DNA of 64,000 nucleotides from Escherichia coli (GCF_011045215.1 NZ_CP049201.1); one strand, 5' to 3'; shown: positions 39,401 through 48,400, counted from the first letter of the stretch. Numbers: made by a program.

Positions 39401-42400
39401 AGGGCCAGCCGGTGGGCGTGGAGATATTTCATTATCGCGACGATCTCTCGCTCGAATCCTACATTTATGCACGCAGTGCCACCATTAAAGACGACAAAAT
39501 GTGGATCCTGCATGGTGTGAATCATAAAAAATGGCTTAACGGTAAAGAAACGCTGGAAACATCAGATAATCTTGCCTGGCAATCGGCCTTCACCAGTATG
39601 GATCTTGAAGAGCTATCGATGCCGGGGAATACTTTTTCTGTCCGTCAGCTTAATCATTACATCCATTATTTGCAGGAAACCGGGCAACCCAGCAGCGAAT
39701 ACCGCCTTGCACTGTGGGAAAAACTGGGGCATCCCATTTTAACCCTGGCGATGATTTTGCTGGCAGTGCCTTTTACCTTTAGTGCCCCGCGCTCGCCAGG
39801 GATGGGTAGCCGTCTCGCTGTAGGTGTCATCGTTGGCTTACTCACCTGGATCAGCTATCAAATCATGGTCAATCTGGGATTGCTATTTGCGTTGAGCGCA
39901 CCTGTTACCGCGCTCGGTTTACCGATAGCGTTTGTGCTGGTGGCGTTGAGCCTGGTGTATTGGTATGACAGACAACATTAAACCCGCCGTGGCGCAACAC
40001 CACGGCGGGCTCACATTACTGCTTCAGAGTAGCAAATGCCTGAATGATGGCATCGATTTGCTCACGACTGTGGGCAGCGTTTACGCTACAGCGCAGCAGC
40101 GTGATGCCTGCAGGCGCGGCAGGTGGCAGGATAAGATTCACATAAACGCCCAGCGAAATAAGCTCGCGCCAGATGCGTAAACCGTCCTCTTTCGAACCGA
40201 TTATTACCGGCACTACCGGGCTAATATGTGAACTTAACTCATAACCCAGTTTTTGCAGACCGTCATACAGATGGTTGGCATTATCCATCAGCTTTTGCCG
40301 CAGCTCTGGTTGTGTGGCAATAGTTCTTAACGACGAGCGCACGGTCGCAATGCAGGACGGAGAAGGAGAGGCGGTAAAAATATACGGGCGGCTGCCGTAG
40401 CGCAGCACTTCCATCGCTTCCGAACCGACAGCAAAACCGCCAATCGAGGCCAGACTTTTACTGAAGGTGCCAACGATAATATCCACATCATCTTCAACGC
40501 CTACAGCTTCAGCCAGTCCGTGCCCCGTTGCGCCTAACACGCCAAACGAATGCGCTTCATCGACAATCAAATAACCACCGAGACGACGTTTGATATCAAC
40601 AATTTCCGCCAGCGGCGCAACGTCACCGAGCATACTGTAGATGCCCTCAACGATGATAATCGCCTCTTTCGCCCGTTCACCGAGGCGAACCATGCGCCGT
40701 TCCAGATCTTTAGCATCGTTATGGCGGAAACGAATAATTTCCGCGCCACCGAGAGAACAGGCGTCATAAATACTGGCGTGGCTGTCGGCATCCAGTAACA
40801 CCACGGCGTTATGGTCGGCAAGTGCGCTGATGACGCCTAAATTAGCGGTATAACCGGTTGAAAAAACGATAGCGGTAGGGCGATTGAAAAACTCGGCAAT
40901 CTCTTTCTCTAACGCCAGGTGCGGCGCATAACTGCCGTTTGCCATACGAGAACCGGTGGTGCCGGTGCCTTGGGTCGCTAACGCTGCCTGACCTTCGGCG
41001 ATGGCATCATGATTAAAGGTTAAACCGAGGTAATTATTGGTCCCGGCCAGAATCACTTTTTTATTGCCGATCCGGCCTTCGGTGGCGGAATACACTTCAT
41101 CAATACAGGTGCCAAACGGTGTTAACCCGTTGTCACTAAATTGCAGTCGCTCGCCAGCAAGGCGCGCATATTTATCGTATAGCCCCATTATTTATTCTCC
41201 AGCCATGGAAGTAGAGTTTCCATTAATTGCGCAGGGGTTTTGACATCCAGCAGAATATTAATAGGAATGGAAATATCGAATCTGTCTTCCAGCATCATTA
41301 AGAGATCCATCACTTTGATCGACTCCAGGCCAAGATCGTTGACGAGATCGCTGTCGGGCTTAATTTCCACACCGTTTTCGACCAAATCCTGTAAACAGGA
41401 AAGGATGTAATCCATTACTATTTCACGATTTACCATAGAAACGTTAACACACCTTTAAACAAGACAATCAAAATAGCCCGTTGCGTAATGCGTGTTCCAG
41501 GCTAATCCCGGGAAACCAATTAATATCTTCAGAAATACGGTTATTACTTGCCGACCAGTCGGCGTGGGTTAATTCACGAATTTTCGAGCGGGTCAGCATA
41601 GGTTCTTTACCTGCCAGGCGACTCAACGCGGTACTGATATCCGCAAGGCAGGTGAGTACCGGCAGAGGAATGCCAACCATTCGCACGGAACCACAACGGG
41701 CGTCGGCGGCAAGTTGCTGTACGCGTTGCCAGTCATAGCCGCCAGCGACGCCATCGCATAATTCATAGGTTTGCGTCTGTACAGTTTCGGCGCTTAACCA
41801 CTGACCCACTGCTTGCGCGAAATCGGTGACGTGCAGGAAAGAGAGCTGTGTATCTGGCGCACCAAGTCGTGGCAGCAGGCCGCGCAGCATCCAGTCAAAC
41901 AGCGGTTTTAACTCTTTATCGCCGGGGCCATACACGGCTGTCGGGCGAAAAACGCCCAGCGTAATTTTGTCAGCCATTGCAGTCAGCCGTTGTTCGGCGA
42001 CATATTTGGAATTTGCGTACCAGGAGAGTTCGGGATGGCGCGCCGCCAGCGAAGGGATAAACAGAAAACGTTGGCAAAAACCGCTCTCTTTTGCCGCCTG
42101 CATCAGGCGCAGACTGCCGTCAACGTTACAGCGGGTGAAAATCTCTTCTTTGTGCCCGCGCACTTGTCCGGCGCAATGAACCACCGCGCTGGCTCCGGCA
42201 ACCAGTTCGCTAAGCGAATGTGTATCTTCCAGCGAACCGCGCACCCAGGTGAGATTATCATTGACGTGAGCGCGGGCAGTACGCGTCAATGCGCGAACGT
42301 GAAAGCAGCGGGCGAGCAGGTTATCGATAATATATTTACCGATAAACCCGGTAGCGCCCGTCACCGCGACAATTTGATTCATGCCAGGGATTCCTGCACA

Positions 42401-45400: not shown

Positions 45401-48400
45401 GATGGGCGTGCGGGACGAGTATCAGTTCAGCCGCATCGGCCCGGTGATTGCGCTGTTATTGATTGAAGCCTTACGCGATCCGTTTGCCCGCCGGAAGATC
45501 GATGCGCTGGAGATGTCATGGATCCTCGAAACCAATACAGGCATGAATAACATGCTGGAACGCATTGGGGCGGAGCCGTACAAGCGTTACCGATTGTATG
45601 AAAAGCAGATTTAATACCAGCTAACTCAGGTTCATCTCCAGCGGCACCGCCGAGCGAATCAAATGGTGGCCTTCCAGCTCGATATCGTGGAGATTCTTTT
45701 TCACGGTCCGCACATGATCGCGTGCTGCGCGCTGGGCGACGTGCGGCAGCCGCTGCAACACCGCGTTGTAGATCCGCGCATGCTGGCGATCGATCTGCTT
45801 TTTTTGCTGTGGTCGATGGTAGAGATTATTTACGCTGGCAAACACTGAATTAAACATCAGGTCGGTCAATGATTGCAGCGTAAACACCAGCACCTGATTG
45901 TGAGAAGCCTGACAAATGGCGAGATGGAAAGCGTGATCCAACTGCGCATGTTCGATCAGCGAAATCTCTTTGTTGTTCTCACTGGCGGCGAGCATTTTTT
46001 CATAACAGCGGGTTATCACAACAAAATCAGCCTGCGTTCCCAGCGTTGCCGCCAGCCTTGCCGATTCGCCCTCCAGCAATGCGCGAACGTCGAGCAGATC
46101 GTACAGCGTTCGCGGCTGCGTACTGAACAGATGGATCAGCGGGCTGGTGTCCTGCACCCGATTAAGCCGTGCGACACGAGAATCGCGACCCTGCGCCGTT
46201 TCAATAATCCCGCGCCCGCGCAGCACGGTCAGCCCTTCACGCAGTGCGGAGCGTGAGAACCCGAGCTTTTCACACAGTCGACGTTCCGAGGGAAGCGGCT
46301 GACCGACCTTCAGTACGCCGTCGATAATTAACCGTTCGATACTCTCTGCAACCACTTCGCAAATAGGGCGACGTTCATCTTTCATTCCCGGACCTCGTGC
46401 ACAGGTAGGACCAATTTTTCTGTTCTTGACTCGCAAAACACGCACATCACGTAAGTGATTATGTTACATCAATTTAACATTGAGTTAACCAAGACAAGGT
46501 CACAGAGCTGGAAAAAAAAATGGTCTGACCGGTAGCTAAAGAGATAGACGAAAACGAAAAGCCCGCTTAATAACTGTTCACAGAAGCAGCGCGCAAAAAT
46601 CAGCTGCCACACAACATAACAAAGCGAAGCCTACTCATGAGCATCTTGTACGAAGAGCGTCTTGATGGCGCTTTACCCGATGTCGACCGCACATCGGTAC
46701 TGATGGCACTGCGTGAGCATGTCCCTGGACTTGAGATCCTGCATACCGATGAGGAGATCATTCCTTACGAGTGTGACGGGTTGAGCGCGTATCGCACGCG
46801 TCCATTACTGGTTGTTCTGCCTAAGCAGATGGAACAGGTGACAGCGATTCTGGCTGTCTGCCACCGCCTGCGTGTACCGGTGGTGACCCGTGGTGCAGGC
46901 ACCGGGCTTTCTGGTGGCGCGCTGCCGCTGGAAAAAGGTGTGTTGTTGGTGATGGCGCGCTTTAAAGAGATCCTCGACATTAACCCCGTTGGTCGCCGCG
47001 CGCGCGTGCAGCCAGGCGTGCGTAACCTGGCGATCTCCCAGGCCGTTGCACCGCATAATCTCTACTACGCACCGGACCCTTCCTCACAAATCGCCTGTTC
47101 CATTGGCGGCAACGTGGCAGAAAATGCCGGCGGCGTCCACTGCCTGAAATATGGTCTGACCGTACATAACCTGCTGAAAATTGAAGTGCAAACGCTGGAT
47201 GGCGAGGCACTGACGCTGGGATCGGATGCGCTGGATTCGCCTGGTTTTGACCTGCTGGCGCTGTTCACCGGATCGGAAGGTATGCTCGGCGTGACCACCG
47301 AAGTAACGGTGAAGCTGTTGCCGAAGCCGCCCGTGGCGCGGGTTCTGTTAGCCAGCTTTGACTCGGTAGAAAAAGCCGGACTTGCAGTTGGTGACATCAT
47401 CGCCAATGGCATTATCCCCGGCGGGCTGGAGATGATGGATAACCTGTCGATCCGCGCGGCGGAAGATTTTATTCATGCCGGTTATCCCGTCGACGCCGAA
47501 GCGATTTTGTTATGCGAGCTGGACGGCGTGGAGTCTGACGTACAGGAAGACTGCGAGCGGGTCAACGACATCTTGTTGAAAGCGGGCGCGACTGACGTCC
47601 GTCTGGCACAGGACGAAGCAGAGCGCGTACGTTTCTGGGCCGGTCGCAAAAATGCGTTCCCGGCGGTAGGACGTATCTCCCCGGATTACTACTGCATGGA
47701 TGGCACCATCCCGCGTCGCGCCCTGCCTGGCGTACTGGAAGGCATTGCCCGTTTATCGCAGCAATATGATTTACGTGTTGCCAACGTCTTTCATGCCGGA
47801 GATGGCAACATGCACCCGTTAATCCTTTTCGATGCCAACGAACCCGGTGAATTTGCCCGCGCGGAAGAGCTGGGCGGGAAGATCCTCGAACTCTGCGTTG
47901 AAGTTGGCGGCAGCATCAGTGGGGAACATGGCATCGGGCGAGAAAAAATCAATCAAATGTGCGCCCAGTTCAACAGCGGTGAAATCACGACCTTCCATGC
48001 GGTCAAGGCGGCGTTTGACCCCGATGGTTTGCTGAACCCTGGGAAAAACATTCCCACGCTACACCGCTGTGCTGAATTTGGTGCCATGCATGTGCATCAC
48101 GGTCATTTACCTTTCCCTGAACTGGAGCGTTTCTGATGCTACGCGAGTGTGATTACAGCCAGGCGCTGCTGGAGCAGGTGAATCAGGCAATTAGCGATAA
48201 AACGCCGCTGGTGATTCAGGGCAGCAATAGCAAAGCCTTTTTAGGTCGCCCTGTCACCGGGCAAACGCTGGATGTGCGTTGTCATCGCGGCATTGTTAAT
48301 TACGACCCGACCGAGCTGGTGATAACCGCTCGTGCCGGAACGCCGCTGGTGGCGATTGAAGCGGCGCTGGAGAGCGCCGGGCAAATGCTTCCCTGCGAGC

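What the first reader, a model, noticed from the sequence alone, without database searches (positions are those of the whole stretch)
40016..45614. Candidate sphingolipid/ceramide-type lipid biosynthesis module: acyl-ACP synthetase, reductase, ACP and Spt-like enzyme with a divergent acyltransferase
A four-gene minus-strand operon with overlapping stop/start codons encodes (in transcription order) a fatty acyl-AMP ligase (YTSGSTRFPRGV), an atypical SDR reductase (GATGFIG, YANSK), a dedicated ACP (DLGLESI) and an alpha-oxoamine synthase whose PLP-lysine motif (GTFSKS) and RPYIFTAS block look like serine palmitoyltransferase. The same four activities lie contiguously in the characterised Caulobacter sphingolipid locus (spt, acp, reductase, acyl-ACP synthetase). 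The divergent yghO-like ORF could fill the role of the bacterial N-acyltransferase (ceramide synthase). E. coli is classically regarded as free of sphingolipids, so an intact set here would be unexpected and, as far as I know, functionally uncharacterised.
Basis: partly seen in the sequence, partly recalled or inferred. Interest (0 to 1): 0.9.

Follow-up and report, generated by a model that had tools for sequence, protein, structure and literature searches.

The report
E. coli ceramide (sphingolipid) gene cluster
This is a real, intact five-gene set for making ceramide-type sphingolipids that about three quarters of complete E. coli genomes carry (K-12 lost it to an IS5 deletion), but it is already annotated and three of its proteins were characterised biochemically in E. 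coli BL21(DE3) in 2022.

Summary
A minus-strand operon encodes a fatty acyl-AMP ligase (aasR), an extended SDR reductase (epi/cerR), an ACP (acpR) and serine palmitoyltransferase (spt). yghO is transcribed divergently from it.

- The 390-aa protein passes NCBI's curated Spt model (597 bits, cut-off 500) and fails BioF and Kbl.
- It matches solved Spt structures twice as strongly as Kbl or BioF.
- YghO is 44% identical over its full length to the characterised Caulobacter ceramide synthase bCerS.
- The YghO model is a tandem-GNAT N-acyltransferase (pLDDT 96.8).

The novelty claim fails. RefSeq already names the gene spt. Padilla-Gómez et al. 2022 (PMC9386255) tested the BL21(DE3) Spt, AcpR and AasR, which are 98.6-100% identical to these. 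That paper also assigned ECD_02852 as reductase and YghO as N-acyltransferase.

The locus is larger than reported. yghT/S/R, a MOP flippase, a CHAD-like protein, YtfJ and a second LptF/LptG pair travel with it in Serratia and Pluralibacter, partly as in the Caulobacter locus.

Still open: I found no report of a native E. coli sphingolipid, and its head group and export route are unknown.

The parts
42379..44067 (-). aasR: fatty acyl-AMP ligase acting as the specialised acyl-ACP synthetase that loads AcpR. The longest ORF extends to a GTG at 44109.
   Evidence: NCBIfam NF006624 scores 875.6 bits against a cut-off of 600. It is 98.6% identical to the BL21 protein. BL21 AasR supports 3-oxo-sphinganine formation only with its cognate AcpR (PMC9386255).
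41468..42382 (-). epi/cerR: extended SDR, the presumptive 3-keto reductase of the long-chain base or ceramide.
   Evidence: Pfam Epimerase hit at 4e-20. GATGFIG lies at residue 9 and YANSK at 122. NDUFA9 chains are among the best PDB hits. It is 97.0% identical to BL21 ECD_02852, which is published as 34% identical, E 7e-38, to Caulobacter CC_1164.
41188..41436 (-). acpR: specialised acyl carrier protein, with Ser39 as the 4'-phosphopantetheine site.
   Evidence: It gives ACP family hits, all below the housekeeping cut-offs. It is 100% identical to BL21 ECD_02853. That protein was shown to carry 4'-phosphopantetheine (PMC9386255).
40016..41188 (-). spt: serine palmitoyltransferase, with Lys244 as the PLP lysine.
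   Evidence: NF047599 scores 597.3 bits against a cut-off of 500. The match to 2jg2 is 374 bits, with His159, Asp231, His234, Lys265 and Arg390 conserved as H137, D210, H213, K244 and R366. It is 99.2% identical to the assayed BL21 enzyme.
44472..45614 (+). yghO: bacterial ceramide synthase (bCerS/Aca) homologue, a tandem-GNAT N-acyltransferase.
   Evidence: It is 44% identical over 380 columns, E 2e-112, to Caulobacter vibrioides bCerS. The AF2 model has pLDDT 96.8. The best PDB folds are tandem-GNAT N-acyltransferases, E 1e-15. Of 121 family members, 14 hit Pfam GNAT.
44068..44471 (.). Divergent aasR/yghO control region: 404 nt at 32% GC.
   Evidence: There is no Rfam family. Promoter-like hits are no more frequent than in shuffles.
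39979..40013 (.). GC-rich hairpin with a 16-bp stem between the convergent lptG2 and spt genes, probably a bidirectional terminator.
37835..39981 (+). lptF2 (37835-38905) and lptG2 (38902-39981): a second LptF/LptG permease pair and candidate sphingolipid extractor.
   Evidence: TIGR04407 scores 318 bits (cut-off 230) and TIGR04408 scores 305 bits (cut-off 240). They are 24-27% identical to the LptF2/LptG2 genes lying directly upstream of bcerS in Caulobacter. The Caulobacter locus is described in PMC11324152.
35059..37804 (+). Full-length yghQ MOP-family flippase (35059-36408), a 274-aa CHAD-like helical protein (36408-37232) and a YtfJ-family periplasmic protein (37241-37804).
   Evidence: Family searches are. 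All three travel with the spt operon in Pluralibacter gergoviae. In Serratia liquefaciens the flippase and part of a 278-aa ORF in the position of the 274-aa protein lie within the fetched 10 kb.
32644..35013 (.). yghT (32644-33336, - strand), yghS (33510-34223, + strand) and yghR (34255-35013, + strand): three paralogous P-loop proteins of unknown function linked to the cluster.
   Evidence: They are 34-43% identical to one another. Only weak P-loop and dTMP-kinase hits were found. In Serratia liquefaciens three ORFs of matching size (251, 236 and 243 aa) sit in this position; only the 251-aa one has a Pfam hit, a faint Thymidylate_kin, and I did not align any of them to YghR/S/T.

Best explanation
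The five genes are the enterobacterial version of the 'rhodobacterial' dihydroceramide pathway.

1. AasR adenylates a free long-chain fatty acid and transfers it to the 4'-phosphopantetheine arm on Ser39 of the dedicated carrier AcpR.
2. Spt (PLP on Lys244) condenses acyl-AcpR with L-serine, releases CO2 and forms 3-oxo-sphinganine.
3. YghO, a tandem-GNAT homologue of bCerS, N-acylates the long-chain base.
4. The SDR Epi/CerR reduces the C3 keto group to give dihydroceramide. The order of steps 3 and 4 is disputed even in Caulobacter.

Steps 1 and 2 have been shown experimentally for 98.6-100% identical BL21(DE3) proteins. Steps 3 and 4 are inferred from homology, fold and gene linkage.

The adjacent MOP flippase and LptF2/LptG2 pair probably move the product to the outer membrane. 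This part is inferred only. The K-12 lineage lost the operon through an IS5-associated deletion.
For: - Spt passes the curated equivalog cut-off and fails BioF and Kbl. It matches solved Spt structures best and keeps the catalytic residues.
- AasR passes the fatty acyl-AMP ligase subfamily cut-off.
- The window proteins are 97-100% identical to those of BL21.
- The BL21 proteins were tested (PMC9386255). AcpR carries 4'-phosphopantetheine. [quoted passage not shown] Spt prefers acyl-AcpR and incorporates L-[14C]serine.
- YghO is 44% identical to Caulobacter bCerS (published value) and models as a tandem GNAT.
- The SDR resembles NDUFA9, as reported for CerR (PMC11087976).
- The operon plus yghO is conserved in Serratia and Pluralibacter in different chromosomal settings.
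- Like the Caulobacter locus, this one contains lptF2/G2 and a flippase.
Against: - I found no report of a native E. coli sphingolipid.
- Empty-vector BL21(DE3), which carries the locus, made no detectable 3-oxo-sphinganine under the published conditions.
- The activities of YghO and the SDR are untested.
- Arg378 of S. paucimobilis Spt is Leu354 here.
- The Caulobacter head-group genes cpgA, cpgB and cpgC have no counterpart in this locus.
- The locus has been lost repeatedly through IS-associated deletions.
Confidence: 0.85

Rival explanations
1. The cluster is biochemically competent but cryptic. It is silent in E. coli under ordinary conditions, makes no physiologically relevant lipid, and is a decaying remnant.
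For: - Empty-vector BL21(DE3) makes no detectable 3-oxo-sphinganine (PMC9386255).
- The 404-nt control region is 32% GC, typical of silenced promoters, though that link is my inference.
- The locus was lost independently through IS5, IS26 and IS3/IS66 events.
Against: - All ORFs of the yghT-yghO locus are intact in the window and in BL21, and the 5.6 kb is present at 95-99% nucleotide identity in about 75% of complete genomes.
- YghO is about 80% identical in several Enterobacterales genera, and the same gene order recurs in Serratia and Pluralibacter. This pattern indicates purifying selection.
- The locus GC content (50%) matches the rest of the window.
Confidence: 0.12
2. The alpha-oxoamine synthase uses an amino acid other than serine (glycine, alanine or cysteate). 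The cluster would then make a different amino-lipid, such as a capnine-like sulfonolipid or an N-acyl amino-ketone, not a sphingolipid.
For: - Arg378 of S. paucimobilis Spt, a serine-carboxylate contact according to my recollection of the literature, is Leu354 here.
- Cysteate-C-fatty acyltransferase is among the PDB hits at 204 bits.
Against: - The Spt equivalog score is above its cut-off, and Spt structures score 170 bits higher than the cysteate enzyme.
- The BL21 enzyme incorporated L-[14C]serine into a product migrating like 3-oxo-sphinganine.
Confidence: 0.03

Closest known systems
E. coli BL21(DE3) ECD_02850-ECD_02854 (yghO/aca, aasR, epi, acpR, spt), Padilla-Gómez et al. 2022, Front Microbiol 13:961041 (PMC9386255)
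   Same: It is the same locus. The proteins are 97-100% identical, and gene order and flanks match (gss-pitB-yghTSR on one side, glcC on the other).
   Different: Only strain-level substitutions: 9 in the SDR, 8 in AasR and 3 in Spt.
Caulobacter crescentus ceramide locus CC_1152-CC_1168 (spt, acpR, cerR/epi, aasR, bcerS, lptF2/G2/C2, flippase, cpgABC)
   Same: - The aasR-epi-acpR-spt operon is the same.
- bCerS is 44% identical to YghO.
- A second LptF/LptG pair and a flippase lie in the same neighbourhood.
   Different: - E. coli has no cpgA, cpgB or cpgC head-group genes, and I found no LptC2 counterpart.
- E. coli instead carries three paralogous P-loop proteins (YghR/S/T), a CHAD-like 274-aa protein restricted to Enterobacterales, and YtfJ.
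- In E. coli yghO is divergent from the operon. In Caulobacter bcerS follows lptG2.
Sphingomonas paucimobilis and S. wittichii serine palmitoyltransferase (PDB 2jg2, 2x8u)
   Same: The proteins align over their full length (374 and 371 bits) and share the PLP lysine and the His/Asp/His/Arg catalytic set.
   Different: Arg378 of the S. paucimobilis enzyme is Leu354 here. The E. coli protein fits NCBI's 'BetaP' Spt model (597 bits) better than the 'AlphaP' model (427 bits, below its cut-off).
BioF, Kbl, ALAS and CqsA (other alpha-oxoamine synthases)
   Same: They share the fold-type I PLP alpha-oxoamine synthase superfamily.
   Different: Scores are well below each family's cut-off. They are also about half the Spt score against the PDB.

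Membership tests
Serine palmitoyltransferase (rhodobacterial Spt, NCBIfam NF047599) | Whole-protein score above the curated equivalog cut-off, and below the cut-offs of sister families. | tested here: met
   597.3 bits against a cut-off of 500. bioF scores 333 against 426, Kbl 296 against 460 and ALAS 219 against 339.
Serine palmitoyltransferase (rhodobacterial Spt, NCBIfam NF047599) | PLP-binding lysine and catalytic His/Asp/His/Arg of solved Spt (S. paucimobilis H159, D231, H234, K265, R390). | tested here: met
   They align to H137, D210, H213, K244 and R366.
Serine palmitoyltransferase (rhodobacterial Spt, NCBIfam NF047599) | Arg378 of the S. paucimobilis enzyme. It contacts the serine carboxylate according to my recollection of the literature, and it is not a family-wide defining residue as far as I know. 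| tested here: not met
   It aligns to Leu354 (LILPPAAP against MARPPATP). The BL21 enzyme, which is 99.2% identical overall, is nevertheless active with serine.
Serine palmitoyltransferase (rhodobacterial Spt, NCBIfam NF047599) | Catalyses L-serine + acyl-thioester -> 3-oxo-sphinganine + CO2. | not testable with these tools
   Published for the 99.2% identical BL21(DE3) enzyme, by TLC with L-[14C]serine and a preference for acyl-AcpR (PMC9386255).
AcpR (specialised ACP for Spt) | Small PP-binding protein with the phosphopantetheine serine, encoded directly upstream of spt and distinct from AcpP. | tested here: met
   82 aa, with DLGLES39. ACP models hit, but below the housekeeping cut-offs. 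Its stop codon overlaps the spt start codon. It is 100% identical to BL21 AcpR, which carries 4'-phosphopantetheine.
AasR (specialised acyl-ACP synthetase, fatty acyl-AMP ligase type) | Fatty acyl-AMP ligase subfamily membership and linkage to acpR-spt. | tested here: met
   NF006624 scores 875.6 bits against a cut-off of 600. The gene is in the same operon. In vivo, BL21 AasR works only with its cognate AcpR.
bCerS / Aca (bacterial ceramide synthase) | Full-length homology to the genetically defined Caulobacter bCerS (CCNA_01212 / CC_1154). | tested here: met
   44.2% identity over 380 columns, E 2e-112. The Caulobacter gene was located with the published cloning primer. The published value is 44%, E 1e-107.
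bCerS / Aca (bacterial ceramide synthase) | GNAT-type N-acyltransferase fold. | tested here: met
   There is no direct Pfam or NCBIfam hit. However, 14 of 121 homologues hit Pfam GNAT. The AF2 model (pLDDT 96.8) matches tandem-GNAT N-acetyltransferases at E 1e-15, TM 0.56-0.62.
bCerS / Aca (bacterial ceramide synthase) | N-acylates the long-chain base to give (oxo)ceramide. | not testable with these tools
   Only suggested for ECD_02850, from ceramide-like TLC spots in BL21(DE3).
CerR / Epi (bacterial ceramide reductase) | Extended SDR with GxxGxxG and YxxxK motifs, NDUFA9-like, encoded within the spt operon. | tested here: met
   GATGFIG at 9 and YANSK at 122. Pfam Epimerase 4e-20. NDUFA9 chains are among the top PDB hits. 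The gene sits between aasR and acpR.
CerR / Epi (bacterial ceramide reductase) | Homology to Caulobacter CC_1164, and keto-reductase activity. | not tested
   The Caulobacter cerR gene lay outside the fetched locus L007. The published comparison is 34% identity, E 7e-38, 94% coverage. The activity of the E. coli protein is untested.
LptF2/LptG2 (second Lpt permease pair of sphingolipid loci) | LptF and LptG family membership, plus linkage to ceramide genes as in Caulobacter. | tested here: met
   TIGR04407 scores 318 against 230, and TIGR04408 scores 305 against 240. They are 24-27% identical to the Caulobacter pair upstream of bcerS. A role in sphingolipid transport is untested in any organism.

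The most novel reading that the evidence does not exclude
The whole 13-gene block yghT-yghO would be one pathway. Most wild E. coli and many other Enterobacterales would make, under conditions not yet identified, a sphingolipid whose head group differs from the Caulobacter one. YghR/S/T (P-loop proteins) and the CHAD-like 274-aa protein would take the place of CpgABC. A dedicated MOP flippase plus LptF2/LptG2 would export the lipid to the outer membrane. The IS5 deletion in K-12 would then explain the textbook view that E. coli has no sphingolipids.
Probability: 0.3. Interest if true: 0.7.

Novelty: already known. Interest (0 to 1): 0.3.

Why it matters
The core claim is already in the literature and in RefSeq annotation, so it adds little by itself.

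What stays valuable is that the locus sits in the best genetic model organism. About 75% of complete E. coli genomes carry it, while K-12 is a natural deletion mutant.

Three questions are therefore directly testable in E. coli:
- Are bacterial sphingolipids made natively?
- What is their head group?
- Does a second LptF/LptG pair carry them to the outer membrane?

The last question is explicitly stated as open for Caulobacter (PMC11324152, PMC11087976).

Tried and rejected
- **BioF/Kbl/ALAS/CqsA identity for the 390-aa protein:** rejected on scores.
- **Direct family assignment of YghO:** Pfam, NCBIfam and PDB sequence searches gave nothing. It was resolved only by comparison with Caulobacter bCerS and by fold prediction.
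- **Stankeviciute et al. 2022 (PMC8891067):** not held, so its taxon list could not be checked.
- **Caulobacter sequences:** Caulobacter spt, acpR, cerR, aasR and cpgABC were therefore not fetched. For those I rely on the published table.
- **YghR and YghT:** Pfam and PDB (YghR only) gave only weak P-loop matches, so no function is assigned. YghR/S/T found nothing in the fetched Caulobacter stretch.
- **274-aa protein:** only a weak CHAD-like fold match, E 0.06.
- **Promoter and terminator scan:** no more hits than in shuffles, apart from the one strong hairpin.
- **Rfam:** nothing.
- **Literature on a native E. coli sphingolipid or on yghQRST function:** nothing relevant found.

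
Full report
**Observation.** The ORF table shows a minus-strand run of four genes.
- Fatty acyl-AMP ligase: 42379-44109 as the longest ORF. RefSeq starts it at the ATG at 44067, giving 562 aa.
- Extended SDR: 41468-42382, 304 aa.
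- ACP: 41188-41436, 82 aa.
- Alpha-oxoamine synthase: 40016-41188, 390 aa.

yghO (44472-45614, 380 aa) lies on the plus strand, divergent from the operon, and is followed by glcC and glcDEF. Two junctions overlap: ATGA between the ligase and the SDR, and TAATG between the ACP and Spt. The SDR-ACP junction is a 31-nt spacer.

**Identity of the four operon genes.**
- The 390-aa protein passes NCBI's curated serine palmitoyltransferase equivalog NF047599 (597.3 bits, cut-off 500). It fails bioF (333 against 426), Kbl (296 against 460) and ALAS (219 against 339).
- Against solved structures it matches S. paucimobilis and S. wittichii Spt at 374 and 371 bits. Kbl reaches 201, BioF 172, ALAS 171 and CqsA 124.
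- The residues aligned to S. paucimobilis His159, Asp231, His234, Lys265 and Arg390 are conserved as H137, D210, H213, K244 and R366. Arg378 aligns to Leu354.
- The ligase passes the fatty acyl-AMP ligase subfamily model (875.6 bits, cut-off 600).
- The SDR is an NAD-dependent epimerase/dehydratase-type protein. NDUFA9 subunits are among its best PDB hits, which is what has been reported for Caulobacter CerR (PMC11087976).

**YghO.** Pfam, NCBIfam and PDB sequence searches give no direct hit.
- I located the Caulobacter vibrioides bcerS gene with the published cloning primer EK1199. YghO is 44% identical to it over 380 aligned columns, E 2e-112.
- The family is large: 1128 cluster representatives at E 1e-30 or better.
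- Of 121 aligned members, 14 hit Pfam GNAT at E 0.001 or better.
- An AlphaFold model built from that alignment has mean pLDDT 96.8.
- Its best PDB neighbours are tandem-GNAT N-acetyltransferases: 2wpw at 1.3e-15, then 5kf1, 7q3a and MshD.

**It is already known.**
- RefSeq annotates the gene as 'spt: serine palmitoyltransferase', next to 'fatty acyl-AMP ligase', 'acyl carrier protein' and 'protein YghO'.
- The window proteins are 97-100% identical to those of E. coli BL21.
- Padilla-Gómez et al. 2022 (PMC9386255) worked on exactly these BL21(DE3) genes. ECD_02853 (AcpR) carries 4'-phosphopantetheine. [quoted passage not shown] The E. coli Spt incorporates L-[14C]serine and prefers acyl-AcpR over acyl-CoA or acyl-AcpP.
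- The paper also assigns ECD_02852 as the presumptive keto-reductase and 'yghO ECD_02850' as the N-acyltransferase.
- Its Table S2 gives 44% identity (E 1e-107) and 34% identity (E 7e-38) to the Caulobacter proteins.
- The same paper cites earlier reviews for spt in E. coli B and in ETEC B7A.

The biological interpretation is right. The claim that the set is uncharacterised is not.

**Distribution.**
- The 5.6 kb is present at 80% coverage or more in 4067 of 5426 complete E. coli genomes. The 16-kb neighbourhood is present in 4051.
- K-12 MG1655 has an IS5 in place of everything from the 3' part of yghQ to the aasR-yghO spacer, and keeps yghO.
- Other lineages lost the region independently: strain AR_0114 next to an IS26, and strain FORC_044 next to IS3/IS66 elements after a truncated pitB.
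- The locus GC content (50%) matches the window (52%). The 404-nt aasR-yghO spacer is 32% GC.
- YghO homologues of about 80% identity occur in Serratia, Citrobacter, Pluralibacter, Pantoea, Erwinia and Kosakonia.
- In Serratia liquefaciens and Pluralibacter gergoviae they sit next to the same aasR-SDR-ACP-spt operon, but with different outer flanks.

**Surroundings.** Upstream on the plus strand lie these genes:
- yghS and yghR, with yghT on the minus strand.
- A full-length MOP-family flippase, which is the intact form of K-12 yghQ.
- A 274-aa protein.
- A YtfJ-family protein.
- A second LptF/LptG pair that passes both curated cut-offs.

A 16-bp-stem hairpin separates lptG2 from the convergent spt gene.

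The Caulobacter sphingolipid region also contains second copies of LptF, LptG and LptC and a putative flippase. These are proposed, but not tested, to carry sphingolipids to the outer membrane (PMC11324152). In the fetched Caulobacter locus the lptF2-lptG2 pair sits directly upstream of bcerS and is 24-27% identical to the E. coli pair.

The Caulobacter head-group genes are CpgA (PgsA-like), CpgB (an LCB5-type ceramide kinase) and CpgC (PMC9393093; PMC10331486). They have no counterpart here.

Instead E. coli has three paralogous P-loop proteins, 34-43% identical to one another, with only weak P-loop hits. It also has the 274-aa protein, whose relatives are found only in Enterobacterales (344 hits). 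That protein models as an all-helical bundle (pLDDT 91.5) with a weak resemblance to CHAD domains (6qv5, E 0.06, TM 0.50). These points are leads, not conclusions.

**Mechanism and what is shown.**
- Shown, for near-identical proteins: fatty acid activation by AasR onto AcpR, and condensation with serine by Spt to a product migrating like 3-oxo-sphinganine.
- Inferred: N-acylation by YghO, 3-keto reduction by the SDR, and export by the flippase and LptF2/LptG2.
- Unknown: whether E. coli makes the lipid natively. Empty-vector BL21(DE3) did not make detectable 3-oxo-sphinganine. Literature searches found no report of a native E. coli sphingolipid.

**Verdict.** Interest is therefore modest. The residual value is the extended locus and the open questions about the native product, its head group and its transport.

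Noticed in passing
window 37835-39981: A second LptF/LptG permease pair, with both proteins above the curated cut-offs, lies convergent to spt. No LptB- or LptC-like gene is nearby. The Caulobacter sphingolipid locus has the same feature, with lptF2-lptG2 directly upstream of bcerS (L007 1353-3631).
   Followed up: partly
window 32644-35013: yghT, yghS and yghR are three paralogous P-loop proteins, 34-43% identical to one another, with only weak dTMP-kinase and P-loop matches. Serratia liquefaciens has three ORFs of matching size (251, 236 and 243 aa) in the same position beside the spt operon, but I did not align them to YghR/S/T. They are candidate head-group enzymes of unknown function.
   Followed up: partly
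window 36408-37232: The 274-aa protein has no Pfam or NCBIfam hit, and its relatives are found only in Enterobacterales. It models confidently as an all-helical bundle with many invariant Arg, Lys and His residues. It weakly resembles polyphosphate-binding CHAD domains (6qv5, E 0.06).
   Followed up: partly
window ~36100-44500, compared with L002 (K-12), L010 (AR_0114) and L009 (FORC_044): The locus has been lost at least three times through IS-associated deletions. K-12 has IS5 (from the yghQ 3' end to the aasR-yghO spacer, with yghO kept). AR_0114 has IS26. FORC_044 has IS3/IS66 elements after a truncated pitB.
   Followed up: yes
window 40016-41188 (Spt residue 354): Arg378 of S. paucimobilis Spt aligns to Leu354 in the E. 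coli enzyme. The protein also fits NCBI's betaproteobacterial Spt model better than the alphaproteobacterial one.
   Followed up: no
window 44068-44471: The 404-nt divergent aasR/yghO spacer is only 32% GC, against about 52% for its surroundings. It may be a silenced or heavily regulated control region. It contains no Rfam family.
   Followed up: no
window 39979-40013: A perfect GC-rich hairpin with a 16-bp stem sits in the 34-nt gap between the convergent lptG2 and spt genes. It is probably a bidirectional terminator.
   Followed up: no
proteins P0121 (784 aa), P0132 (630 aa) and P0191 (940 aa): Some YghO/bCerS homologues are fused to extra domains of 250-560 residues. P0121 matches in two stretches. 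The extra domains were not identified.
   Followed up: no
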